Shown: positions 5,828-21,737 of the stretch, in pieces
How the letters are laid out: each line of letters opens with the position of its first letter
How positions within the stretch are numbered: position 1 is the stretch's first letter
Origin: a virus
Taxonomy: Duplodnaviria; Heunggongvirae; Uroviricota; Caudoviricetes
Direction: 5' to 3' (one strand)
IMG/VR virus record: IMGVR_UViG_2778261154_000008
Length of the DNA stretch: 25,084 nt
Notes under the pieces: generated by a model
Databases searched by the model: none
What the model was told of the DNA's origin: nothing
The model's input: the letters and a program-made list of their open reading frames with translations, nothing else
Made by a program: the position numbers and the translations under genes

Positions 5828-7620
5828 TAACCCTGCTCCACGCTGGTGACGCCAGCCTGCGCACTGAGTCTGACGCCGGGTTGATCCACTCTGACGCTTT
5901 TCACGCGGGCATCACCTTCCACCACCACACGGATTTCCCCCTGCAATTGTTGCGGAAGGAAAGGATAATTCTGAGTGGGTTGCATACCAGCCCACGGTCG
6001 CGGGTCGGCAATATTCTTTTTTTCCAGAGAGTTAAACCAGTTCCTGATATCCGTCCATACCGTCGGGCGGTTGTTGTTTTCCTGAACCCGTGCGATTAAC
6101 GCATCTGCTTCCTCTTTGTTCTTAGGGAAAGCAGAGAGCACCATGTCAAGGAGATTAAATCCTGATGCAGTTTGTGGTGTAACCAGCGCTGGCGTCTTTG
6201 GCCCACGTGGGTTGCGGGAGTTACGGGGATTGCGCGATGAATCCGGCGCATCCGGCAGACCGCCGGTATTACCCTTCATCCCGCCACTGCCCATATTGAC
6301 CACATAAACCGGCATCACACCGGAGCCGAAAACATCCGTAATGCTGCCGGGTATCCCTTTGCCTTTCCCTTTGGGATTCATGATGTCGTGGATGGTTTTA
6401 CCGAACTGATACGTCTTTCTGATGGCGATAATGCCGCCCAGCGCGATCGCCATATATTTACCGACCTGCAACCAGTTCTGGGCAGTGTTCTGGTCCACGC
6501 TGTTGAGCGCATCCGCCAGGTCCTGAACGGGCTTTGCCAGTTGCCCTTCAGCAAAACGTTGCCATTCGTTATTCAGTGACTGTATTGCGGCATTAAAGCC
6601 TTCGGCATTGGTCTGTGCGGCCTTTTGCGTGGAACCCAGCTCAATCGTGCCGTAAATCATTTGTTCCATCAGTTGCCGGTTTTCAGGGTTAAGCAGCGCC
6701 TTAATCCCCTGCATTCCGGTCAGATCAAACACATCCTGAAGTTTCAGCGGGTCGTATTTGGCCCGTTTAAGGATTTCCATCATCAGCTCATAGGGCTTTT
6801 TGATGTCTTTTGTGCCTTTGACAAAAACGTCAATGCCGTTTTTTTTCAGGAACTCGATGTTCTTTTTGTCCGACAGGGAAGCATACATGGCCTGAATACT
6901 GGTTACCGTCTCATCAATGCTGCCTTTGTTTTTGGCGAACACCTGAGCAAATGCCCCCATCTGGGCAATGGCTTCCGGTCCCTGATCCTGAATGATGGAA
7001 AACAGTTTCGGGGCAGCGCGGGCAACATCGGCAACGCTTACAGACCCCACTGCGAACTGCGAATACAGCCTGTCCATCATGTTATTGACCGCATCAGCAC
7101 CCCGGACGTTTTTTTCCCAGAACTGGGCCATCAGCCCGGCTGCAACCTGTCCGTCAACACCGAACGCCTGCATCATCAACCCCATGTTGCGGAGGTTGTC
7201 CACCACATACTGATAATCACCGGTTTTCCCCAGAAGTTCGCTGGCCCCCTGACCAAGCGCAGAAGCATCAATACGAATATCTTTCTGGTTCGATACATCC
7301 CTGATTTTGTCGTGAAGCGTCTTTACCTGTTCAGTGGTTAACTGGGCATCCGTACCCATCCGGCGCATCTGCGCATCAAAATCGGCAACCTGTTTGATGG
7401 TAAGACTACTGCCAAGCCCGGCTATCATTGCCGTGTAGCGGTTACCAAGCGTATCAAGGCCGCGTCCTGCGGCCTCCGTTGTGGCTTTGACAAGGCGCAT
7501 GGCCTTCTGGTTGTTCCGGGCGAACTGCGACATGTTTGCGCCGTACTGCCGGGCTTTGGCGGTCAGGTTCCCGGCAAGGTTGATCATGATTTCCGTGCTG
7601 AGACGGTTACCTGTTGCCAT
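5827..7620 (-). CDS. Tail tape measure protein
   Basis: 597-aa ORF, largely helical-looking with a Gly/Pro/Asn-rich C-terminal tract; sits between the chaperone and DNA circulation genes. Confidence 0.8.
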   Translation of the reverse strand: MATGNRLSTEIMINLAGNLTAKARQYGANMSQFARNNQKAMRLVKATTEAAGRGLDTLGNRYTAMIAGLGSSLTIKQVADFDAQMRRMGTDAQLTTEQVKTLHDKIRDVSNQKDIRIDASALGQGASELLGKTGDYQYVVDNLRNMGLMMQAFGVDGQVAAGLMAQFWEKNVRGADAVNNMMDRLYSQFAVGSVSVADVARAAPKLFSIIQDQGPEAIAQMGAFAQVFAKNKGSIDETVTSIQAMYASLSDKKNIEFLKKNGIDVFVKGTKDIKKPYELMMEILKRAKYDPLKLQDVFDLTGMQGIKALLNPENRQLMEQMIYGTIELGSTQKAAQTNAEGFNAAIQSLNNEWQRFAEGQLAKPVQDLADALNSVDQNTAQNWLQVGKYMAIALGGIIAIRKTYQFGKTIHDIMNPKGKGKGIPGSITDVFGSGVMPVYVVNMGSGGMKGNTGGLPDAPDSSRNPRNSRNPRGPKTPALVTPQTASGFNLLDMVLSAFPKNKEEADALIARVQENNNRPTVWTDIRNWFNSLEKKNIADPRPWAGMQPTQNYPFLPQQLQGEIRVVVEGDARVKSVRVDQPGVRLSAQAGVTSVEQG

Positions 7621-7816
7621 GCTGTTTCTCCAGTTGCTTTATCAGGCGGAACAGCTGCCGCAGGGGCAGCTGTTCCAGGTACTGAATGCTGAATCGCGAA
7701 GACAGGTTAACCAGCAGGTTCATCAGTGCCGACGCCAGCGGCATCAGTTCGCCCCCGCGTTGCCACCTCCTCAAGCATGTCATCCAGCACAGCCGCTTTC
7801 GTGCTGATAAGCTCAA
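7607..7816 (-). CDS. Probable frameshift extension of the tail assembly chaperone (G/GT-like arrangement)
   Basis: Frame open from 7816 to 7607, overlapping the chaperone 3' end by 110 nt and the tape measure start by 14 nt. The listed start is TTG with no convincing RBS. This frame is +1 (equivalently -2) relative to the chaperone frame. Confidence 0.4.
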   Translation of the reverse strand: MSLSARKRLCWMTCLRRWQRGGELMPLASALMNLLVNLSSRFSIQYLEQLPLRQLFRLIKQLEKQHGNR

Positions 7817-11264: not shown

Positions 11265-11698
11265 AGCACCCCTTTCAGGTTGTTACGGGTGAACAGCCGG
11301 GCATTGGCACCCACCACAATAATTTTCCCGTTGTCGGTTTCTGCCGGGGTGGCATACGTCGGCAGGCCCAGGTCACGGGTGCCGTTCGCCATTTCACGCA
11401 GGGTTTTAATGGCGTCGTCGTAGCGTTTCTGGATCAGCTCCGTGATTTGATTGTCACGCTCTGATAACCAGTAAAACGCCAGCGATACCGCCACGCGTTG
11501 CAGCGGGCGCGGGATTTCCGTCACCCCCAGCGGCAGCTGGTAGCGGCGGGACAGAAACGAATCAATTTCCGCTTCCGCATCACTGATGGCCTGACGGATT
11601 TTGTCTTCATCCAGCCCGTTGGTTTCCCGGTTAATCGCCATGTTCCAGACAAGATTGCCGTCCGCGCGTAACAGGTCTTCCTGCGTGATGTATCCCAT
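11261..11698 (-). CDS. Mu gp36-like protein (DUF1320-like), probable head-tail connector
   Basis: 145-aa ORF, translationally coupled on both sides. Confidence 0.5.
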   Translation of the reverse strand: MGYITQEDLLRADGNLVWNMAINRETNGLDEDKIRQAISDAEAEIDSFLSRRYQLPLGVTEIPRPLQRVAVSLAFYWLSERDNQITELIQKRYDDAIKTLREMANGTRDLGLPTYATPAETDNGKIIVVGANARLFTRNNLKGVL

Positions 11699-12009
11699 CA
11701 GCCTTTCTCCGCTTCCCGGACAATCAGATTCGGCTCTGCCATCAGGCGGGTGGCAACCGCAGCGCTCACCGCCACATCCTCACCGATATGTGACCAGAAA
11801 CGGCCACAGCGCCAGAACCCGTTTTCAGACACGGCCCTGACGTTCAGCCGGACAGGGGCGTCACCCTGTACAGCAACCGGGTCTTCAGCCGGACGTGGTT
11901 CATTCGCCTGACCGTCAGCCACAATAACGTCTGCCAGCGGTGCCGGGTTTTCCTGTGCAGCGCTGTTCTTTGCGGCTTTCGCGCCTTTGGTTTCTGCTTT
12001 TTCACTCAT
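11698..12009 (-). CDS. Hypothetical head-associated protein (first gene after the major head gene)
   Basis: 103-aa ORF with an Ala/Pro/Glu-rich N-terminal half; ATG at 12009 preceded by a palindrome-rich leader. Confidence 0.45.
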   Translation of the reverse strand: MSEKAETKGAKAAKNSAAQENPAPLADVIVADGQANEPRPAEDPVAVQGDAPVRLNVRAVSENGFWRCGRFWSHIGEDVAVSAAVATRLMAEPNLIVREAEKG

Positions 12010-12013
12010 GACT

Positions 12014-12063
12014 CTGCCTTTTAAAAGGCAGTTAAAAGGGCATTCACAGCACCTTTTAACTGC
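12014..12063 (-). promoter_or_regulatory. Nested palindromes between the major head gene and the next gene (attenuator or RBS-sequestering structure)
   Basis: 18-bp perfect palindrome ctgccttttaaaaggcag (12014-12031) overlaps a 12-bp perfect inverted repeat gcagttaaaagg-N12-ccttttaactgc (12028-12063); the downstream gene's RBS/ATG (12007-12009) abuts the first palindrome. Confidence 0.45.
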
Positions 12064-12080
12064 GGTTTACGGATGACGGG

Positions 12081-12986
12081 TTATGCCGGGGTGGTGATGT
12101 ACGGGCTGTCCACGATCTTCACATCCTTGTACCAGATGTTGGAATCGCCGCCGTTAACCAGCATGGCGTCAATAATGAGCTTCGCGTCCGCACGGTTTTT
12201 CGGCCCCACCACAAGGGTGGTCGGGCGGATGCCCAGCGGCTCACCGTTGGTGCCCTTCATGCCCCGCAGCAACTCATTGGCTTTTTTGTAGTTCTCCACC
12301 GTCAGTGCTGCATGGGAACCGACGGCGGTCTGCCAGAAGCCGAAGCCCGCATTACAGCGACCGTCCACGCCGTACAGGAACTCGTGGTTCTTGAAGGTGT
12401 GCTCGCTGTTCAGATCGTCCAGGGCTTCAAACTTAAAGGCGCGTCGCGTCTGCCAGATGATGGGTTTCAGCACCTGCGACTCATCAATCAGGAACCACGG
12501 TTCGCCCTTGTCTGATGCCGGGGTGCCGACAACGTTGCTGTACGTACCGTCACCCAGCGGGTGGTCTTCATCAAAGAAGTTCTGGCCGTCAAAGCACAGG
12601 GTGTTAAAACCGGCACACAACAGGGCGTAACACAGCTTGTCCGGGAACACAGCAGTCATACGGCCATAGCGTTCGGCGGTAATGCTGTACTGACCAATCT
12701 GGTCATCTTCAATGTGTTCACGCTTAACGCGAATGGAACTTTCCCAGAGTTTGTTGGTGATGGTGTAACCATAACCGTCCAGCGTTGCCAGCTGACGCTC
12801 ACCGACCCATTCTTTGATGTCCGGTAAATCTTTCATCCAGCCGTAAGTGTTGGAGGCGGACGAACTCGGCACCTCAGAAGCAATACGATTCCACTGCGGT
12901 TCGACACCACTCAGTCCACGGGTAAAGGCGGCGCTCAGGCAGGTGGTCAGTGCATGAAGGATTTCAGAACTGATAGTCTGTGACAT
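12081..12986 (-). CDS. Major head subunit (Mu T / gp34-like)
   Basis: 301-aa ORF directly downstream of the protease/scaffold gene, followed by a strong stem-loop, as is common after major capsid genes. Confidence 0.85.
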   Translation of the reverse strand: MSQTISSEILHALTTCLSAAFTRGLSGVEPQWNRIASEVPSSSASNTYGWMKDLPDIKEWVGERQLATLDGYGYTITNKLWESSIRVKREHIEDDQIGQYSITAERYGRMTAVFPDKLCYALLCAGFNTLCFDGQNFFDEDHPLGDGTYSNVVGTPASDKGEPWFLIDESQVLKPIIWQTRRAFKFEALDDLNSEHTFKNHEFLYGVDGRCNAGFGFWQTAVGSHAALTVENYKKANELLRGMKGTNGEPLGIRPTTLVVGPKNRADAKLIIDAMLVNGGDSNIWYKDVKIVDSPYITTPA

Positions 12987-12993
12987 GTGTTAC

Positions 12994-13950
12994 TTACTCC
13001 TGTTTCGGTTTAGCGGCGAGGAACTCTTCCCCGGTAATACCCATGCTGCGACACATCGCCAGTTCGGCATCGGTCAGTGTCTGCGCGGGTTTATCCTTGC
13101 CCTGGCTGGGCTTGTCGTTGTTAACCAGCGGCTGTGCACCTTTGGTGTACTCCGCAAACTGTTTGCGGCCTTCTTCCGTGCGGCAGGTGGCAAGGAACAT
13201 GTCACGGTTTGCCGGGGCGACTTTTCCGGCCCCGATGGCCGCATCCACAAGCGCCTCGGCTTCCTTCTCTTCCAGTTGCTGAAGGCGTTTTTCTGCGGTT
13301 TCGGCACGGTTCAGTGCCAGATTGTGGGTTTCCACCGGCACAAACTTCGTCAGGTCAGGTGTCTGTGCGCGGTTCAGCGCCACCTGTTCGTTCTCCTGAA
13401 GTTGTTTAATGGCGGCCACGGTATCGTCCACCGTGGCGGATTCAGCCAGCCCAAGCAGGCCGGTGATTTGCACAGGTACTGTCATCGGGTTTTTCTCCGT
13501 ATTCAGTGCAGGAAAATCCAGGTTAGGTTTGTTGGTCAGCCCGACGCTGGACAGGCGCGTCACCGCACCGTCTGCGTCATGGAAAAACGCCGGGCTGTAA
13601 TAGCGGTAGCGGCGCTCGCTCAGCATCCACCGGGCGGACTCACTCCAGACAACACGCCCTTCAATGGTGCCGCTGTCCGTCACCCGCAGTGCTTCCACCC
13701 AGCCATACGCCGGAGCCTCTTCACCCCGCGGGCCTTTAATTTCGGTGGCATGTTCAATGTCCACCGGAATGTTGATGTCGGACGAACGGGCAACCACCTC
13801 ATGTGGATTGCGGTTCATCCACGTCCGGCCATCGCGCCCGGTGAACTCACCCGCAGGAACGAGTTCAAGCCATTCCGGCAGTTGAGCGGGTGTCAGCTCA
13901 GGGATGGGTTCTGGCAGGGAAAAACACAGCGCCAGCAGTTCCGGTTGCAT
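12994..13950 (-). CDS. Head maturation protease / scaffold (Mu I / gp32-like)
   Basis: 318-aa ORF with a C-terminal helical Ala/Glu/Lys-rich scaffold-like region; first gene after the F-I intergenic gap. Confidence 0.8.
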   Translation of the reverse strand: MQPELLALCFSLPEPIPELTPAQLPEWLELVPAGEFTGRDGRTWMNRNPHEVVARSSDINIPVDIEHATEIKGPRGEEAPAYGWVEALRVTDSGTIEGRVVWSESARWMLSERRYRYYSPAFFHDADGAVTRLSSVGLTNKPNLDFPALNTEKNPMTVPVQITGLLGLAESATVDDTVAAIKQLQENEQVALNRAQTPDLTKFVPVETHNLALNRAETAEKRLQQLEEKEAEALVDAAIGAGKVAPANRDMFLATCRTEEGRKQFAEYTKGAQPLVNNDKPSQGKDKPAQTLTDAELAMCRSMGITGEEFLAAKPKQE

Positions 13951-13999: not shown

Positions 14000-14025
14000 A
14001 AAAAAAGCCGGATTTACCGGCTTCA
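14000..14025 (-). terminator. Exact second copy of the same 26-bp hairpin plus T-tract element, ~50 nt upstream of the protease/scaffold gene
   Basis: aaaaaaagccggatttaccggcttca is identical at 14000-14025 and 21712-21737; flanks differ. Position matches where Mu has its late promoter for gene I. Confidence 0.5.
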
Positions 14026-14066: not shown

Positions 14067-14113
14067 CGCCACAGACGCTTCAAAAAAGCCAGGGTGTACA
14101 TTCATGCCATCAG

Positions 14114-14140
14114 AATAAAAAACGCGTTTCTGATGCGTTT
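14114..14140 (-). terminator. Candidate intrinsic terminator just downstream of the head morphogenesis gene
   Basis: Minus-strand RNA AAACGC-AUCAGAAAC-GCGUUU-UUUAUU, starting ~25 nt after the stop at 14165; the stem is short and AU-rich, so the call is weak. Confidence 0.3.
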
Positions 14141-14164: not shown

Positions 14165-14929
14165 TTATTCACTGTTAAAACGGGCCTGTCTGGCCGCCAG
14201 CTGGCGCGCCAGCTCCTGCTCACGGTTTATACCGGGATTGTAGTTCCAGCCCGGATCAATCCCTTCCGGCACATCTTCCTCTTCGCCCGTGCGTTTGTTC
14301 ACCCAGCGGACAGTTCTGATTTCCGGCGCTTCGGTGTGAATGGTGCCCTGTGCCGCCAGTTGCGCATACTCACCACGGCTGACCTGACGGATGGTGCATT
14401 TGCAGCCCCAGCCGTTAGGGGCAAAATGCGTCTGCCAGAACGGATGATCTACCGGCAGACACAGACGCGCCCATTTCACATGCTCCACCCGGTGCTCACG
14501 GGATGGCCCCAGCTCGTACATCAGATACGGCATGGCCTGCTTTGTCCGCTGAATGCGTTCCCACTGGCCCGCCGCGCGGGCGGTGCGCATGTTGGTATCA
14601 AAAATCGTGCGGAGGCGGCGGTCGCTGCCCAGTTGCACGGTGCGGGTTTCACCCGTCAGCGGATCATCCATCTCCTGTACGCCCCACCATCCGCGTTTTA
14701 TCAGCAACGGTTGCAGCATCTCCCGGAACTCGCTGAACGTCTGCCCGCTTTGCAGGGCGTCTTCCACAAGGGCTTTCACATCCGACAACAAATCCAGTTG
14801 CAGCATTCTGGCCACGGGGAAGCTGTACCGGTACTCTTCCCGCCACACATCCCGGTAATCAAAACCGGGACGCAGCTTCTTCGCCTTCAGCCACGCCAGC
14901 GCCTCTTTCGGGATGAGGGTTTCACGCAT
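14165..14929 (-). CDS. Head morphogenesis protein (Mu F / gp30-like)
   Basis: ORF listed as 14165..14986. I prefer the internal ATG at 14929, which has GGGAGA 9 nt upstream and overlaps the portal stop by 8 nt. Confidence 0.75.
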   Translation of the reverse strand: MRETLIPKEALAWLKAKKLRPGFDYRDVWREEYRYSFPVARMLQLDLLSDVKALVEDALQSGQTFSEFREMLQPLLIKRGWWGVQEMDDPLTGETRTVQLGSDRRLRTIFDTNMRTARAAGQWERIQRTKQAMPYLMYELGPSREHRVEHVKWARLCLPVDHPFWQTHFAPNGWGCKCTIRQVSRGEYAQLAAQGTIHTEAPEIRTVRWVNKRTGEEEDVPEGIDPGWNYNPGINREQELARQLAARQARFNSE

Positions 14930-16493
14930 GAGCAGTGTCTCCCAGCGCACGCGCCTTAAAGCACACCTCCGCCAGTTGCAGGGCAAAGTCGTCCGCGTTC
15001 AGCGTTTCCTGAAGCTCAGGCAGGCGTTTCAGAAAGTCATCAAAACTGTCGCACTCCTGCGCCAGTGTCAGCACCGGGTTCGTGAACGCCTCGCCGGTTT
15101 TCTGCCAGTCACGCAGGGCATCATCCACCATCTGTGCCAGTTCGTCGGGGTGTTCCCTGTTCAGGGCGACGCGCTCGCGGTTCATCGCCATATCACCCGG
15201 CATCCCGGCGGAAACCGGATGCAGAACATCAGCCCCTTCGTCTGGCTCAGTCAGGCCGAACCGGTCCCGCAGCTCCGATTCCTGAACCCGCATCCCCCGG
15301 TCAATCAGCGGCACCAGAGCATCCGTCAGCGCCTTCAGATCTTCGGCTTCACTGATACGCAGAACAACACGGGGGTAGTGCGCCTGTGGCCCGTAGTTGG
15401 CCTCGATGTAGGGCCGCACCAGATATTCATTCAGCGTGTTAGCCAGCTGTCGCGCGTCCCAGCGCACAATGTCCATGCGCACCTGATTGTGCACGTCCGC
15501 CTGTGAACGCGAACTGCCGTTATCCGTGGTCATGGTCTGCCCCAGCACAGCCTTACTGATTTGCGCATCGCACCATTCCGCCATTTCACGGAACAGTGCG
15601 CCGCCGTTATTCCGGCTGGCGGTTTCCTGCATCTCCAGTTGCATGGACTGCGGAATGGCACACCCGGCATCCGAGGCAATGGAGGCAATCGCATCAATCA
15701 GCACGCGGATTTGCTCCTCCGTGGCGTTGGGACCGTATTTCCCCACCGTAACCGGAATGCCGAATTTTTCCGCAAATGCCCACCAGTCGCGCACGGTAAA
15801 TGATTTCAGCATGTACATCACAGCCACCAGACGGGCCAGACCGTTACGCAGCGGCAGACCGGATTTCAGACGCGGCTGGTGAACAATGAATTTTCCCGGT
15901 GTCAGCGGTACGCCATCCACCGGTTCATCGTCCGTCAGCAGGCGGAACTGGCGCAGTGTGGGCTTTTCGGCTTTCAGAAAACGGGGATCAACCCACTCAT
16001 AATCACGGGGCATCCAGTGGTTGTTGCGGGTGTCCCACAGGATTTCACAGACCGCCACGCCTTTTCCCAGCCCGTCGAGCAAATCAAACATCAGTTCGGG
16101 GATTTGCGGGGCTTCCATCAGCGCACGGATGGCGTCCGCCAGCTGCACGTCGGCATCGTCATCACTGGCGGCCACCACCACCGGTTCGATACCTGCCACT
16201 GTCAGCTTGCGGGTGCGCAGCACCGAGGCGTAATGCAAATCACGTTCTTCCATCTCTTCGGCAAGGATAAAAAAATCACGCGTGATGCCGTCGGCGGCAT
16301 TGCGCAGAATGCCTGCCAGCCTGCCGGGGTTCAGCCCGGAGGCGACGCTGATACCCGGCGAGGCCGGACGCACACCGGCATGACGCGGACGGGCCTGTGC
16401 TTCGTTGAGCGCCTCTTTTTTCAGCGTGTCTTCCTCACCGGTTGCCGGATTCAGCAGACGGCGAACGGCCCCGGCCAGTTGTTTCAGGTTCAC
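14922..16493 (-). CDS. Portal protein (Mu H / gp29-like, DUF935-type)
   Basis: 523-aa ORF immediately downstream of the terminase large subunit, with overlapping stop/start. Confidence 0.85.
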   Translation of the reverse strand: MNLKQLAGAVRRLLNPATGEEDTLKKEALNEAQARPRHAGVRPASPGISVASGLNPGRLAGILRNAADGITRDFFILAEEMEERDLHYASVLRTRKLTVAGIEPVVVAASDDDADVQLADAIRALMEAPQIPELMFDLLDGLGKGVAVCEILWDTRNNHWMPRDYEWVDPRFLKAEKPTLRQFRLLTDDEPVDGVPLTPGKFIVHQPRLKSGLPLRNGLARLVAVMYMLKSFTVRDWWAFAEKFGIPVTVGKYGPNATEEQIRVLIDAIASIASDAGCAIPQSMQLEMQETASRNNGGALFREMAEWCDAQISKAVLGQTMTTDNGSSRSQADVHNQVRMDIVRWDARQLANTLNEYLVRPYIEANYGPQAHYPRVVLRISEAEDLKALTDALVPLIDRGMRVQESELRDRFGLTEPDEGADVLHPVSAGMPGDMAMNRERVALNREHPDELAQMVDDALRDWQKTGEAFTNPVLTLAQECDSFDDFLKRLPELQETLNADDFALQLAEVCFKARALGDTAHA

Positions 16494-18025
16494 AGTAAAC
16501 CTCCCTCATTTTTCAGGCCGCGTGTCAGCTTCATCTGGCGGCGCGCGTTGCCTTCTTCCGGTTTCGCCGGGCGGTTCAGGCGGTGCAGCTCGTAACGGTG
16601 GCAGTCATCCTTGCTGGCAAGGAAGCCCAGGAAAATGGCCACAGCGGCGTCGCCGTGACGCTTGCGGCCATCACTGCCTTTAGTACGGGCATCGTCAATG
16701 CCGGGAACACCACGCAGTAACTGAATGGCCCCGAGGTCATTGATCACGTCTTCATGCTTCGGAAGGATCAGCTCATCATCTTCAAACGCTGCACGGAAAC
16801 GGGGCATGTTTTCGCGGTAGAACGCCACGGACAGCATCACCTGTTCCACCTCATCGCCGTACCGCTCCGCCGCCTGTTCTGCCAGATACTGACCATTCCC
16901 CCGCGCATCCATTTTGATACCGTCACGACGGGGCAGACGATCGCAAAGCCAGAACAGCACCTGCTCCTGCTGTTTAAACGGCACATTGGCAAGCTCAACC
17001 AGGAACGGCACCTCGCGGGTGGTGTCGTCGTTCACCGTTACCGGGGCCAGCACGGTCAGGTCACCCGAACGCGCAAAGTCTTCCCCCAGACAGTGGCGCA
17101 GGCTCTGCGGGAGTTTTTCCAGTTCAGGGCGCACCACCGTTTCCAGCCATTCCCGGATATCTGCCCGGCGCTGGCTTTCCGTCAGTGCGTTAAACTCCGG
17201 CGTGCCGGTAAAGCGCAACACTTTTCCGGTGCCACGGGCCGCACGTTCACGCAGTGAGCGGGGGATATACGTGCCGCCGCCGTTTTTCGGGACGCAGTAA
17301 TACTCCTCCAGCGCATCTTCGCGGGTGGCGGTATTTCGCAGCAGGCCTTCTTTCCATTCCGCCTCGGCTTCCGGTGACCACACCATGCCGCGCACCTGAC
17401 AGATACGCCGGTACAGACCGTCATTGCAGGCGTCATCCAGCGTGATGGTGTGAATACGGTAATCTTTTTTGCCTGCGCGGCTTTCCTGAATCAGCTGGTT
17501 AAACGGGTTGTCCACGCCGTCATGGGTGGAGATAAGGCGAACCTTACCGCCCCACGTGGTCAGTGGTGTGACCGCCTTGAGTACCTCATCCAGCTTTTCA
17601 TGAAACGCCGCTTCGTCGATGGTGACATTCCCCTGCATCCCGCGAATGTTGCCCGGATTACTGGACAGCGCCTTGACCTTAAATCCGCTGGCGAAGTACA
17701 CGACGAACGTCAGAATGTCCTTGTCTTCGTCGGTGATCACTTCCTCGCGGATTTCTTCCGCGGCTGCATTAAACGCTTTCGCCCACATCGCCACGGCGTC
17801 GATAAATTCGCGGGCCATCTCCTTATTCGAACCGATGTAAAAGTGATCGCGCCCGCCGTTTTCCTTCTTCAGTGATGCGGTCAGTGCCGCATCTGCCGCT
17901 TCTGCCCAGGTTAAACCGGTACGGCGGGATTTTTCGGCGATTTTCAGTTTTGAATCATCCGCCACCCAACGTTTCTGATACGGCAGCAGAACATCGGATT
18001 CACTGAATGCGTTCATCTGTGTCAT
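16490..18025 (-). CDS. Terminase large subunit (Mu gp28-like)
   Basis: 511-aa ORF with an ATPase-like N-terminal half (acidic NVTIDEAAF motif resembling a Walker B / catalytic carboxylate) and a nuclease-sized C-terminal half; ATGA overlap with the small subunit. Confidence 0.9.
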   Translation of the reverse strand: MTQMNAFSESDVLLPYQKRWVADDSKLKIAEKSRRTGLTWAEAADAALTASLKKENGGRDHFYIGSNKEMAREFIDAVAMWAKAFNAAAEEIREEVITDEDKDILTFVVYFASGFKVKALSSNPGNIRGMQGNVTIDEAAFHEKLDEVLKAVTPLTTWGGKVRLISTHDGVDNPFNQLIQESRAGKKDYRIHTITLDDACNDGLYRRICQVRGMVWSPEAEAEWKEGLLRNTATREDALEEYYCVPKNGGGTYIPRSLRERAARGTGKVLRFTGTPEFNALTESQRRADIREWLETVVRPELEKLPQSLRHCLGEDFARSGDLTVLAPVTVNDDTTREVPFLVELANVPFKQQEQVLFWLCDRLPRRDGIKMDARGNGQYLAEQAAERYGDEVEQVMLSVAFYRENMPRFRAAFEDDELILPKHEDVINDLGAIQLLRGVPGIDDARTKGSDGRKRHGDAAVAIFLGFLASKDDCHRYELHRLNRPAKPEEGNARRQMKLTRGLKNEGGLL

Positions 18026-18603
18026 ACACTAATCCCCAGAATTTCACGTTTGATGGTGTCAGCCGCACCGCCTGACAGACCGCCCGCTCTGACCAGCTCT
18101 TCGGTTTTCTCTGCCATTTCCTGCGCAAACGCATCGCGGATTGCTTTTTCGCGTTTATGGCTGGTCATGGCTGCCGCTTCCAGACGCTGGGCAACCAGCG
18201 CCAGTTGCCCCAGCGCCTTCGGTGCAACAGGTTTGTCATCTTCTGCCATCGACATGGACGTTTCAAAGGCCAGCGTTTTTACAAACTCCATCAGCAGCTT
18301 GCCGACGTCTGACGTCGGCGCGGAACCCAGCTTTGCCGCCCAGACTTCGGCCATTTCGCGGGAGGCGCGGATTTTTGCCCCGACTTTTTCCATGCGGATG
18401 GCATAGCGGTTTAAGCCCGTCCGGCTTAACTGCATCTCCCCCGGCAGGTTGTGTTCGTCAATCAGGGCATTGATGGCTTCGCGGATTTCTTCCTGCGTGT
18501 GCCGCTTTTCCCGCAGCATCTGATGCAACTGCTCCCGGATGCTGTCCGGGAGTAAATCCACTTTGGAAAGACGGCCACGGGTGGGGCGTTGTTCATTTTC
18601 CAT
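18022..18603 (-). CDS. Terminase small subunit (Mu gp27-like, DUF3486-type)
   Basis: ORF listed from a GTG at 18624; the ATG at 18603 (MENEQRPTRG...) has GGAGG 7 nt upstream. Stop overlaps the terminase large start. Confidence 0.7.
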   Translation of the reverse strand: MENEQRPTRGRLSKVDLLPDSIREQLHQMLREKRHTQEEIREAINALIDEHNLPGEMQLSRTGLNRYAIRMEKVGAKIRASREMAEVWAAKLGSAPTSDVGKLLMEFVKTLAFETSMSMAEDDKPVAPKALGQLALVAQRLEAAAMTSHKREKAIRDAFAQEMAEKTEELVRAGGLSGGAADTIKREILGISV

Positions 18604-18740
18604 GTGTGCCCTCCTGTTGCTCACTACGCTGTGAACTTTCGTATGCAGATTTCAGTGCGCCGCTCTGGATTTCCCGCCATGTCAGGTTGTGCGCCAGACG
18701 GCGGAGCTCATCACGGGACGCTTTACTTATCGGATTCTTT

Positions 18741-19853: not shown

Positions 19854-20458
19854 TTCGGCCCCGCTGATATTTTGTGACAGCTCGATTTGCTGTAACGGGC
19901 AAAGCCGTCAAGGGTTCTTACCCCGAGATAGCCCAGCGCCGGGGTAAACAACATCAGCGTGATATCCCAGTCCGGTGACGGCATATGCAGCGTGATACCG
20001 TTCGCACCGGCAACCGCACCGGCAATCTGGCCACAGGAGAGCAACAGCACATAGGCCAGACTGCTGTAACAGGACAGACGGGCCAGCAACGGGCGCGTCT
20101 GGCGCACATAGCTGTCCGTGGCGTTGTCACCGTTGCGGATGGTTTCCTGTTGTTCGTGGTGAGCGGCCTGCTGGTCAGCCAGCACCAGCTTCTGCCGCTC
20201 CACCTCCAGCTGTTGCAGCTGGACTTTCAGGGTTTCCAGCTGCACCAGTTGCTCCGGTGACAGCATCACCAGTTTTTGTTCCAGAATGCGTTGCTGTTCA
20301 GCCACCGGCAGGCTTTCCCGGACGCTTTCCACCATACCGGCCACCGAGTCAGCGGCGGCAGATGTGCTGCCACCAAACCAGCGCCCGACGGAACGAATCA
20401 GCCCCGGCCCGGCTTTCAGCAGAACGGAGGCGATGCCTGAAAGGGTTAACGGGTCCAT
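19850..20458 (-). CDS. Lysis-associated membrane protein (holin or lysis-regulator candidate)
   Basis: 202-aa ORF: amphipathic N-terminus, central coiled coil (LETLKVQLQQLEVERQKL), C-terminal hydrophobic segments; AAGGGGGA RBS upstream of the ATG. Confidence 0.45.
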   Translation of the reverse strand: MDPLTLSGIASVLLKAGPGLIRSVGRWFGGSTSAAADSVAGMVESVRESLPVAEQQRILEQKLVMLSPEQLVQLETLKVQLQQLEVERQKLVLADQQAAHHEQQETIRNGDNATDSYVRQTRPLLARLSCYSSLAYVLLLSCGQIAGAVAGANGITLHMPSPDWDITLMLFTPALGYLGVRTLDGFARYSKSSCHKISAGPK

Positions 20459-21711: not shown

Positions 21712-21737
21712 AAAAAAAGCCGGATTTACCGGCTTCA
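21712..21737 (-). terminator. Hairpin plus T-tract between the Mor/C gene and the lysis operon: intrinsic terminator and/or late-promoter activator site (copy 2 of a 26-bp repeat)
   Basis: Minus-strand RNA reads UGAAGCCGG-UAAAU-CCGGCUU-UUUUUUA: 7-bp GC-rich stem, 5-nt loop, U7. Begins 4 nt after the Mor/C stop and lies ~55 nt upstream of the endolysin ATG. Confidence 0.55.

What the first reader, a model, noticed from the sequence alone, without database searches (positions are those of the whole stretch)
12014..12063. Nested perfect palindromes after the major head gene that could sequester the next gene's RBS
The 71-bp gap after the major head gene contains a 12-bp perfect inverted repeat with a 12-nt loop (12028-12063) overlapping an 18-bp perfect palindrome (12014-12031) that abuts the RBS/ATG of the following 103-aa gene. 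The two structures are mutually exclusive, so the region could act as a transcriptional attenuator or mRNA-stabilising hairpin giving high major-capsid expression, and/or as a switch limiting translation of the downstream gene. The repeated CCTTTTAA / TTAAAAGG units could equally be a protein-binding site.
Basis: seen in the sequence. Interest (0 to 1): 0.45.

Follow-up and report, generated by a model that had tools for sequence, protein, structure and literature searches.

The report
Conserved RNA hairpin after capsid gene
The two overlapping palindromes are real, but they are this E. coli Mu-like prophage's version of the terminator-like RNA hairpin that phage Mu and many relatives carry right after their major capsid gene, an ordinary way to make more capsid message than downstream message.

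Summary
The genes lie on the minus strand. The 71-bp gap (12010-12080) between the Mu-type major head gene gpT (12081-12986) and a 103-aa ORF (11698-12009) holds two structures. H1 is a 12-bp perfect inverted repeat (12028-12063). H2 is an 18-bp perfect palindrome (12014-12031). They share 4 bases.

H1 is the counterpart of the hairpin after gene T of phage Mu. The two share the arms TTAAAAGG/CCTTTTAA and the leader TAACCGTCA. GenBank annotates the Mu hairpin as a predicted terminator.

A sister clade (capsid about 73% identical) has a different hairpin at the same place. There 6 of 11 pairs show compensatory changes, 97% of cells are paired, and G·U pairs occur only in the sense orientation. 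Close relatives keep H1, the U-run and the ribosome-binding site almost invariant, while the adjacent spacer varies freely.

The best reading is an RNA hairpin in the late mRNA that acts as a leaky terminator and/or a 3' exonuclease barrier. It would favour the scaffold/protease/capsid segment over the roughly 11 kb of head-completion and tail genes that must be read through it.

The RBS-sequestering switch is not supported, because H1 dominates the predicted ensemble and H2 is absent from relatives. A DNA protein-binding site is unsupported. This is a new member of a known kind, of low interest.

The parts
12081..12986 (-). Major head (capsid) gene, Mu gpT family, 301 aa, stop UAA at 12083-12081
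   Evidence: ORF list. Pfam Mu-like_gpT E 6e-111 and PHROG 371 major head protein E 3e-119. RefSeq annotation of the 99.9% identical E. coli prophage.
12064..12080 (-). 17-nt spacer between the stop codon and H1. It keeps H1 outside the footprint of a terminating ribosome.
   Evidence: Sequence. It is the most variable stretch among close relatives, with 16 of 27 alignment columns variable, including 7-10 nt indels. The leader UAACC(C)GUCA is shared with Mu and the sister clade.
12052..12063 (-). H1 5' arm GCAGUUAAAAGG
   Evidence: the repeat finder I1. Pairing probability is above 0.93 for every base. UUAAAAGG is identical to the 5' arm of the Mu hairpin.
12040..12051 (-). H1 apical part UGCUGUGAAUGC: bulged U12051, two inner G-C pairs (12050-49 with 12041-40) and a 7-nt loop
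   Evidence: MFE and centroid structures. Only 2 of 12 columns vary in 19 haplotypes.
12028..12039 (-). H1 3' arm CCUUUUAACUGC. Its last four bases, CUGC, are shared with H2.
   Evidence: CCUUUUAA is identical to the 3' arm of the Mu hairpin.
12023..12026 (-). Run of four U, one base after H1 (C-UUUU-AAAA): a short terminator-type tail
   Evidence: Sequence. It is invariant in 19 haplotypes. With 4 U in 8 it falls below the 5-of-8 threshold of the consensus scan, which does not call it.
12014..12031 (.). H2, the 18-bp perfect palindrome CTGCCTTTTAAAAGGCAG. As RNA it is a 7-bp stem with a UUAA loop, -9.6 kcal/mol.
   Evidence: the repeat finder I2 and energies. Its core CCUUUUAAAAGG corresponds to the box CCUUUAAAGAGG (sister clade) and GAUUUAAAGG (Mu) just upstream of the start codon.
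12017..12020 (-). Shine-Dalgarno AAGG of the 103-aa gene, 7 nt before AUG 12009-12007, preceded by the A/U-rich UUUUAAAA
   Evidence: Read from the sequence. The opening cost is 1.7-2.4 kcal/mol.
11698..12009 (-). 103-aa ORF of unknown function (PHROG 10420), in the position of Mu gp35
   Evidence: No Pfam, NCBIfam or PDB match and no BLASTP similarity to Mu gp35. Homologues in some E. coli genomes are labelled 'HI1506-related protein'.

Best explanation
H1 (12028-12063, minus strand) is an RNA stem-loop at the 3' end of the major-capsid cistron of the late polycistronic mRNA. It is the local version of the terminator-like hairpin that follows gene T in phage Mu.

Proposed mechanism (inferred). 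The hairpin folds as soon as it is transcribed, and it lies beyond the reach of the ribosome that terminates at UAA. With its short U-run it makes a fraction of RNA polymerases stop. On read-through transcripts that are cut further downstream, it blocks 3'-to-5' exonucleases. Either way, the promoter-proximal protease/scaffold/capsid segment becomes more abundant than the head-completion and tail cistrons behind it. This matches the hundreds of capsid and scaffold copies needed per virion against about a dozen connector subunits.

The element must be leaky. Roughly 11 kb of tightly packed essential genes downstream have no intergenic space for a promoter.

H2 is mainly the overlap of three things: H1's base, the U-run, and the conserved A/U-rich box plus Shine-Dalgarno of the next gene. 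It is a minor conformer, not a switch.

Shown: the structure, its conservation, covariation at the homologous site, and its strand. Inferred: termination and/or stabilisation, and the effect on expression ratios.
For: 1. Mu, SfMu and Yersinia phage Tongde carry UAACCGUCA-UUAAAAGGCGG-UUCAGA-CCGCCUUUUAA between T and gp35. This shares the same outer arms and leader, although the capsid proteins are only 37% identical. The Mu record annotates 20068-20087 as 'terminator predicted by TransTermHP'.

2. The sister clade has capsids about 73% identical and gives 24 distinct sequences from Klebsiella, Raoultella, Serratia, Brenneria and others. It has a different 11-bp hairpin at the same place. There 97% of cells are paired, 6 pairs have compensatory double changes, and there are 45 compensatory cells against 14 +/- 2.7 in shuffles (0 of 500 reach the observed value). 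Slid controls give only 33-45% pairing.

3. There are ten G·U cells against one C·A cell, so the sense-strand RNA is the folded species.

4. In 19 haplotypes of the window's own clade, 17% of columns vary in the coding flanks and 59% in the spacer. Only 3 of 24 vary in the H1 arms, 2 of 12 in the loop, and 0 of 14 in the U-run/SD stretch.

5. Stable hairpins follow the gpT gene in Vibrio, Rhodovulum and Ralstonia phages. Full canonical terminators sit there in Salinibacter phage M8CC-19 and locus L079. In a broad IMG/VR sample, 23 of the 31 loci with a gap of at least 40 nt have a hairpin of -12 kcal/mol or better.

6. H1 folds at -20.2 kcal/mol and its pairs have probability above 0.93.

7. 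Minus-strand genes from 12009 down to 872 overlap or are at most 9 nt apart. The one exception is a stretch that encodes a frameshift extension. They therefore depend on read-through.

8. There are precedents. A strong terminator lies immediately after the capsid gene in T7 and LUZ100 (PMC10134795). 3' protective hairpins set mRNA ratios within E. coli operons, as in malE-malF (PMC5927463).
Against: No transcript data exist for this prophage or, as far as I could find, for the Mu T-gp35 junction.

The consensus terminator scan calls neither H1, nor the Mu hairpin, nor the sister-clade hairpin. The tail has only 4 U in 8, and the stem is A/U-rich (7 G-C pairs of 14).

Most post-capsid hairpins in relatives lack a U-tract (16 of 23 have 3 U or fewer). 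A canonical intrinsic terminator therefore cannot be the conserved function. I cannot separate termination from exonuclease protection.

Within the window's own clade the stem hardly varies, so covariation is shown only at the homologous site of the sister clade. The loop is as conserved as the stem, which a plain hairpin does not explain.

About 60% of distant gpT phages have almost no gap after the capsid gene and no hairpin, so the feature is clade-specific.
Confidence: 0.6

Rival explanations
1. Translational switch. H1 and H2 compete for the shared CUGC. When H2 (or the alternative pairing 12039-12032 with 12024-12017) forms, the Shine-Dalgarno AAGG is buried and the 103-aa gene is translated less. 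The balance might be set by a protein or by cleavage of H1.
For: H2 contains the SD and ends 4 nt before the AUG. The bare states differ by only 1.2 kcal/mol: H1 alone is -20.2, and 8-bp H1 plus H2 is -19.0. The two helices would abut and could stack coaxially, which the energy model ignores. If the 5' arm of H1 is removed, H2 becomes the MFE fold and the SD opening cost rises to 3.2 kcal/mol. H2 is invariant in 17 of 19 close haplotypes. From my own knowledge, Mu has a precedent for a translation-inhibiting stem opened by a protein (Com at mom).
Against: Ensemble P(outer H2 pair) is 0.004 against 0.98 for H1. The SD opening cost is no higher than in relatives without H2. H2 is absent from the sister clade and from Mu. 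H1 starts 17 nt after the stop codon, so upstream translation cannot melt it to flip the switch. Haplotypes L021 and L022 break the third H2 pair (CTGC to CTCC) with no compensating change.
Confidence: 0.1
2. RNase III (or other endonuclease) processing site. The extended H1 helix is cleaved, separating the capsid mRNA from the downstream message and leaving a hairpin remnant at the new 3' end, as at the T7 intercistronic R sites.
For: H1 plus its flanking pairs gives up to 18 pairs interrupted by an internal loop (I1), which resembles T7 R sites (own knowledge). The loop sequence is conserved as strongly as the stem. Most relatives' hairpins have no U-tract.
Against: The continuous helix is 12-14 bp, shorter than the roughly two helical turns RNase III prefers (own knowledge). 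The flanking UAAA/UUUA extension is not conserved in close relatives, where GTAAACC becomes GTAACCC. The sister-clade helix is only 11 bp.
Confidence: 0.1
3. DNA-level element. The palindromes would be the binding site of a dimeric protein (late activator, repressor or nucleoid protein) or a cruciform-forming site.
For: Both are perfect palindromes with repeated 8-mers. Some sister-clade versions are perfect palindromes through the loop, for example TTTATCGGGCGTTTAAACGCCCGATAAA in L012.
Against: CCTTTTAA/TTAAAAGG occurs nowhere else in 25 kb. There is no promoter-like site in the gap. The stem sequence is completely replaced between clades while pairing is kept, and G·U wobbles are tolerated in one orientation only. 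That pattern fits RNA, not a sequence-specific DNA site. The putative late-promoter element of this prophage is a different sequence.
Confidence: 0.05
4. No current function. The palindromes are by-products of a short tandem and inverted duplication of the CCTTTTAA box next to the ribosome-binding site, conserved only because the clade is young.
For: The arrangement CCTTTTAA-CTG-CCTTTTAA-AAGG looks like an 11-nt tandem duplication. A 9+9 palindrome alone is not rare (P about 0.13). The motif TTAAAAGG...CCTTTTAA is generic in phage DNA: more than 120 IMG/VR hits, of which only 11 lie next to gpT.
Against: The flanking spacer and synonymous sites have diverged a lot in the same haplotypes while H1/H2 stayed nearly fixed. 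A hairpin is kept at this position across clades with compensatory changes.
Confidence: 0.1

Closest known systems
Phage Mu T-gp35 intergenic hairpin (AF083977 20068-20087, annotated 'terminator predicted by TransTermHP'); identical in SfMu and Yersinia phage Tongde
   Same: It has the same position, right after the gpT major capsid gene and before the next head-completion gene. The gap size is similar (66 against 71 bp). It shares the leader UAACC(C)GUCA and the outer arms UUAAAAGG/CCUUUUAA. A UUUAAAGG box lies before the Shine-Dalgarno.
   Different: The inner stem and loop differ: Mu has CGG-UUCAGA-CCG, the window has (U)GC-UGUGAAU-GC. The window adds a GCAG/CUGC clamp at the base and a second CCUUUUAA copy, which creates the H2 palindrome. 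Mu has no H2. The capsid proteins are only 37% identical, and the downstream proteins are not detectably similar.
Terminator immediately downstream of the major capsid gene in T7-like phages (T7 T-phi; LUZ100, PMC10134795)
   Same: The hairpin is placed directly after the capsid gene, so that capsid mRNA exceeds downstream structural mRNA, and read-through is needed for later genes.
   Different: Those act on phage RNA polymerases and have been mapped experimentally. Here the host polymerase is used, the U-tail is short, and nothing has been measured.
Intercistronic 3' protective hairpins that cause differential decay within operons (malE-malF REP; operon-wide survey in PMC5927463)
   Same: This is a stable stem-loop just after the highly expressed cistron of a polycistronic mRNA. 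It has no full U-tract and is conserved through compensatory changes.
   Different: It is not a REP sequence. Its sequence is confined to this phage locus, and no decay data exist.
Canonical Rho-independent terminators at the same position in distant gpT phages (Salinibacter phage M8CC-19; IMG/VR locus L079)
   Same: They have the same gene context and are hairpins of similar or greater stability.
   Different: Those have G+C-rich stems followed by 6-7 U. The window has an A/U-rich stem and 4 U.

Membership tests
Canonical intrinsic (Rho-independent) terminator | Stable G+C-rich stem with a short loop (3-8 nt) | tested here: inconclusive
   The stem is 14 bp with one bulge, the loop is 7 nt, and the energy is -20.2 kcal/mol. 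Only 7 of the 14 pairs are G-C, and the pairs next to the loop are weak.
Canonical intrinsic (Rho-independent) terminator | U-rich tract (about 5 or more U in 8) directly after the stem | tested here: not met
   The tail is CUUUUAAA, with 4 U of 8. The consensus scan does not call the site, nor the Mu or sister-clade hairpins.
Canonical intrinsic (Rho-independent) terminator | Transcript 3' ends map to the U-tract | not testable with these tools
   No transcript data are available. This needs Term-seq, 3'-RACE or in vitro transcription.
Mu-type post-capsid (T-gp35) hairpin | Lies between a gpT-family capsid gene and the next head-completion gene, on the coding strand | tested here: met
   Pfam Mu-like_gpT upstream and a Gp36/J homologue two genes downstream. 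The layout matches Mu.
Mu-type post-capsid (T-gp35) hairpin | Sequence similarity of the element itself to the Mu element | tested here: met
   Shared UAACC(C)GUCA leader and shared 8-bp arms UUAAAAGG/CCUUUUAA. Of 120 IMG/VR hits to the arm pattern, 11 lie next to gpT, and those are all of the window type or the Mu type. The arm motif is generic, so convergence cannot be excluded.
Structured cis-acting RNA (conserved helix) | Base pairs maintained by compensatory substitutions | tested here: met
   This is met at the homologous site of the sister clade: 6 of 11 pairs have double changes, and the covariation score is 0.519 against 0.160 in shuffles. It could not be tested in the window's own clade, where the arms are nearly invariant.
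3' protective (mRNA-stabilising) intercistronic hairpin | The upstream cistron has a longer half-life that depends on the hairpin | not testable with these tools
   This needs a rifampicin-chase RNA-seq or Northern blot with hairpin mutants.
SD-sequestering translational switch | The Shine-Dalgarno is paired in a dominant or inducible conformer | tested here: not met
   P(outer H2 pair) is 0.004, and the SD opening cost is 1.7-2.4 kcal/mol, within the range of relatives that lack H2.
SD-sequestering translational switch | The alternative pairing is conserved in relatives | tested here: not met
   H2 is absent from the sister clade and Mu, and it is weakened without compensation in L021 and L022.
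Any Rfam family | Score at or above the gathering threshold | tested here: not met
   There are no hits at gathering scores in the whole window. There are only chance-level miRNA-hairpin hits at E above 1 in 11950-12150.

The most novel reading that the evidence does not exclude
H1 and H2 form a genuine two-state RNA device. The 8-bp H1 plus H2 conformer, stabilised by coaxial stacking or by a phage protein, would couple 3'-end formation or processing of the capsid message to translation of the downstream connector-position gene. After cleavage in H1, for example, H2 would cap the 5' end of the downstream fragment and mask its ribosome-binding site.
Probability: 0.07. Interest if true: 0.45.

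Novelty: new member of a known kind. Interest (0 to 1): 0.2.

Why it matters
If the reading is right, this is one more example of a common phage tactic: a hairpin after the capsid gene sets the ratio of high-copy to low-copy virion proteins inside a single late operon. Its modest value is comparative. The position is conserved from Mu to several enterobacterial prophage clades while the sequence turns over, with clear compensatory changes. This shows that the Mu 'predicted terminator' is under selection as an RNA structure. It also gives annotators a reason to mark it. It does not open a new question.

Tried and rejected
1. Rfam, at gathering scores and with permissive E-values, found nothing meaningful.

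2. The consensus promoter/terminator scan of the gap, of Mu and of a sister-clade locus called no site. A canonical terminator could therefore not be claimed.

3. A raw sliding-window MFE over the whole window was uninformative. G+C-rich coding windows fold more strongly than the A/U-rich H1 (-20.5, about 1.8 sd below the mean).

The arm motif is therefore generic and is not a signature.

5. I tried to give the 103-aa protein a function through Pfam, NCBIfam, PDB sequences and BLASTP against Mu gp35. There were no matches.

6. I read the gap by eye for an RNase E motif (RN|WUU, as described in PMC5927463) and found no clear match. No tool was run for this.

7. Literature searches found no transcript mapping of the Mu T-gp35 junction. 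The Mu genome paper (PubMed 11922669) is not held in the library.

8. Three E. coli genomes match only up to the gap. I checked whether the palindrome is a deletion hotspot. One junction (UMNF18) is explained by an 8-bp direct repeat, and another (E94) lies 11 nt upstream of H1, so I rejected this idea.

Full report
**What is there**

The window is the late region of a Mu-like prophage of Escherichia coli. It is 99.9% identical to the chromosome of strain FDAARGOS_943, and the element occurs in 48 of 5426 complete E. coli genomes.

All genes run on the minus strand. In order they are terminase (16490-18025), portal (14922-16493), a Mu F-like protein (14165-14986), the protease/scaffold gene I (12994-13950) and the major head gene gpT (12081-12986; Pfam Mu-like_gpT, E 6e-111). 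Then comes the 71-bp gap 12010-12080, followed by a 103-aa ORF (11698-12009; PHROG 10420, unknown function), a Gp36/J homologue, and the tail genes.

On the mRNA strand the gap reads UAA-CCCGUCAUCCGUAAACC-GCAGUUAAAAGG-UGCUGUGAAUGC-CCUUUUAACUGC-CUUUUAAAAGGCAGAGUC-AUG.

**Observation check**

The repeat finder confirms both structures at the stated coordinates. One is an 18-bp perfect palindrome at 12014-12031, called H2 here. The other is a 12-bp perfect inverted repeat with 12 nt between the arms at 12028-12063, called H1.

In Markov simulations of the window, a 9+9 palindrome turns up in 13% of trials. A 12-bp perfect repeat with a short loop is expected only 0.03 times per window. The 8-mers CCTTTTAA and TTAAAAGG occur nowhere else in the 25 kb.

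Two refinements apply:
- As RNA, H1 is really a 14-bp stem with one bulged U and a 7-nt loop, at -20.2 kcal/mol.
- H1 and H2 share only the four bases CUGC, so a shortened H1 and H2 can coexist.

**Comparison with relatives**

I collected the region downstream of gpT homologues from GTDB genomes, IMG/VR and GenBank phages.

*Close relatives* (capsid 88-100% identical; 19 haplotypes). These keep H1 and H2. Variable alignment columns make up 17% of the coding flanks and 59% of the spacer between the stop codon and H1, which also has 7-10 nt indels. By contrast only 3 of 24 columns vary in the H1 arms, 2 of 12 in the loop, and 0 of 14 in the U-run/Shine-Dalgarno stretch. The three arm changes all occur in two loci (L021, L022). 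There they weaken the base of H1 and one H2 pair without abolishing H1.

*Sister clade* (capsid about 73% identical; Klebsiella, Raoultella, Serratia, Brenneria, Kluyvera, Pluralibacter). This clade has a different hairpin at the same place. The typical form is GUUACAGCGGGC-GUUAAA-CCCGCUGUAAC, with entirely different stems in some members. It is followed by CCACCUUUAAAGAGGAUGG and the start codon.
- On 24 distinct sequences the 11-bp helix is paired in 97% of cells.
- Six pairs show compensatory double changes.
- There are 45 compensatory cells against 14 +/- 2.7 in shuffles (0 of 500 reach the observed value).
- Sliding the partner by 1-3 columns drops pairing to 33-45%.
- Ten cells are G·U and one is C·A, so the folded species is the sense-strand RNA and not DNA.

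*Phage Mu, SfMu and Yersinia phage Tongde* (capsid 37% identical). Between T and gp35 these carry UAACCGUCA-UUAAAAGGCGG-UUCAGA-CCGCCUUUUAA-CCUGAUUUAAAGGAAAAGGAGG. The leader and the outer eight pairs are the same as in the window. The Mu GenBank record annotates this hairpin as a 'terminator predicted by TransTermHP'.

*More distant gpT phages.* Stable hairpins follow the capsid gene in Vibrio, Rhodovulum and Ralstonia phages. Textbook terminators sit there in Salinibacter phage M8CC-19 and IMG/VR locus L079. Pseudomonas phage MP22 has only a weak hairpin, and Rhodobacter phage RC1 has none.

*Broad IMG/VR sample* (77 distinct loci). Here 31 loci have a gap of at least 40 nt after the capsid gene, and 23 of those hold a hairpin of -12 kcal/mol or better. 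Only 1 of the 23 has 5 or more U in the next 8 nt, 6 have 4, and 16 have 3 or fewer. The next-ORF calls in this sample are crude, and many of these genomes are G+C-rich. This sample is supportive, not decisive.

**How it most likely works**

The conserved object is an RNA hairpin just after the capsid cistron. In the window and in Mu it has the A-tract / hairpin / U-run shape of an intrinsic terminator, but with only four U. The simple consensus scan calls none of the three versions. Most relatives have no U-tract at all.

Downstream of H1, about 11 kb of head-completion and tail genes overlap or are separated by at most 9 nt. The single larger gap, 7621-7706, in fact encodes a frameshift extension. 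These genes must therefore be transcribed through H1.

I infer that H1 is a leaky terminator and/or a barrier to 3' exonucleases. It would raise the level of the promoter-proximal protease/scaffold/capsid message relative to the downstream message.

There are precedents for this logic. A strong terminator lies right after the capsid gene of T7 and LUZ100 (PMC10134795). 3' protective hairpins such as malE-malF shape mRNA ratios within E. coli operons (PMC5927463).

H1 begins 17 nt after the stop codon, outside the footprint of a terminating ribosome (general knowledge), so upstream translation should not melt it.

Termination and stabilisation cannot be told apart with the tools available. No transcript data were found.

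**The proposed switch**

The bare energies of the two states are close: -20.2 for H1 alone and -19.0 for 8-bp H1 plus H2. In the full ensemble, however, the outer H1 pair has probability 0.98 and the outer H2 pair 0.004.

Opening the Shine-Dalgarno AAGG (12020-12017) costs 1.7-2.4 kcal/mol. Mu and sister-clade loci, which have no H2, span 0.8-4.3 kcal/mol.

The core of H2, CCUUUUAAAAGG, corresponds to a box that precedes the start codon in all three clades: CCUUUAAAGAGG in the sister clade and GAUUUAAAGG in Mu. I take it to be an A/U-rich leader plus Shine-Dalgarno. Three extra complementary bases on each side make it a perfect palindrome here.

One caveat remains. The energy model ignores coaxial stacking of the two abutting helices, so a larger share of the H2 state cannot be excluded. 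Only if the 5' arm of H1 is removed does H2 become the main fold.

**DNA-level readings**

There is no promoter-like site in the gap and no second copy of the motif in the window. The prophage's own repeated regulatory-looking element is a different sequence. Together with the sense-specific G·U pairs, this makes a protein-binding site or a cruciform function unlikely.

**Verdict**

The RBS switch and the binding-site ideas are not supported. The element is a new member of a known kind: the post-capsid terminator-like hairpin, already annotated as a prediction in Mu. Interest is low. The useful by-product is covariation evidence that this hairpin position is under selection as RNA across several Mu-like clades.

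Noticed in passing
window 14000-14024 (-) and 21712-21736 (-): An identical 25-nt element GAAGCCGGTAAATCCGGCTTTTTTT (hairpin plus T-run) occurs twice, with none expected by chance. One copy lies in the gap before the protease gene I. The other lies in the gap between the Mor-family activator gene and the endolysin gene. These are the positions of the Mu late promoters PI and Plys, and the Mu record annotates a terminator plus a late promoter at the former. The copies could be terminators that insulate late operons, late-activator sites, or both.
   Followed up: partly
window 7648-7676 (-): This is the only other 12-bp perfect inverted repeat in the window: GGAACAGCTGCC-cctgc-GGCAGCTGTTCC. It lies in the apparent gap between the tail assembly chaperone gene and the tape-measure gene. 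The ORF 7607-7816 reads through it in another frame, as expected for the frameshifted chaperone extension, so the hairpin sits inside that extension. Any role in frameshifting was not examined.
   Followed up: no
window 12032-12043 (-), inside H1: A three-codon mini-ORF AUG-CCC-UUU-UAA starts in the H1 loop, 6 nt after an SD-like AAGGUG in the 5' arm. Its stop codon lies 11 nt before the SD of the 103-aa gene. The AUG is kept in all 19 close haplotypes but is absent from Mu. It is probably a coincidence.
   Followed up: no
sister-clade loci, alignment A1 columns 47-53 (e.g. L012, L045, L054): The hairpin loop is almost always (G/U)UUAAA even where the stem sequence is completely replaced. This makes some versions perfect 28-bp DNA palindromes. 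The centre of H2 in the window is also UUUUAAAA. The reason for the conserved A/U palindromic centre is unexplained.
   Followed up: partly
L296 (E. coli UMNF18) 880-905; L297 (E. coli E94) 865-885: Degraded copies of the prophage are deleted from the post-capsid gap onward. In UMNF18 the junction falls at the first bases of H1 and joins to mid-sheath (window about 9116) across an 8-bp direct repeat AACCCGCA. In E94 and E92 the junction is 10 nt after the stop codon and joins to a baseplate gene. These look like microhomology deletions, not palindrome-driven ones.
   Followed up: partly
window 14100-14140 (-): A further hairpin plus T-run (AAACGC-AUCAGA-AACGCGUUUUUUAUU) lies directly after the Mu F-like gene, upstream of the repeated element at 14024. 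The F-to-I gap may therefore hold two terminator-like structures in tandem.
   Followed up: no
window 18301-18319: A 19-bp near-perfect palindrome GCCGACGTC-T-GACGTCGGC lies inside the DUF3486 gene (18022-18624, minus strand) next to the large terminase gene.
   Followed up: no
E. coli genomes, hits H86, H87, H114-H117: In some RefSeq genomes the gene after the gap is named 'HI1506-related protein', and HI1506 is the FluMu homologue of Mu gp35 according to the Mu GenBank record. The window's own 103-aa product matches no NCBIfam, Pfam or PDB entry. It may still be a diverged gp35-type connector protein.
   Followed up: partly
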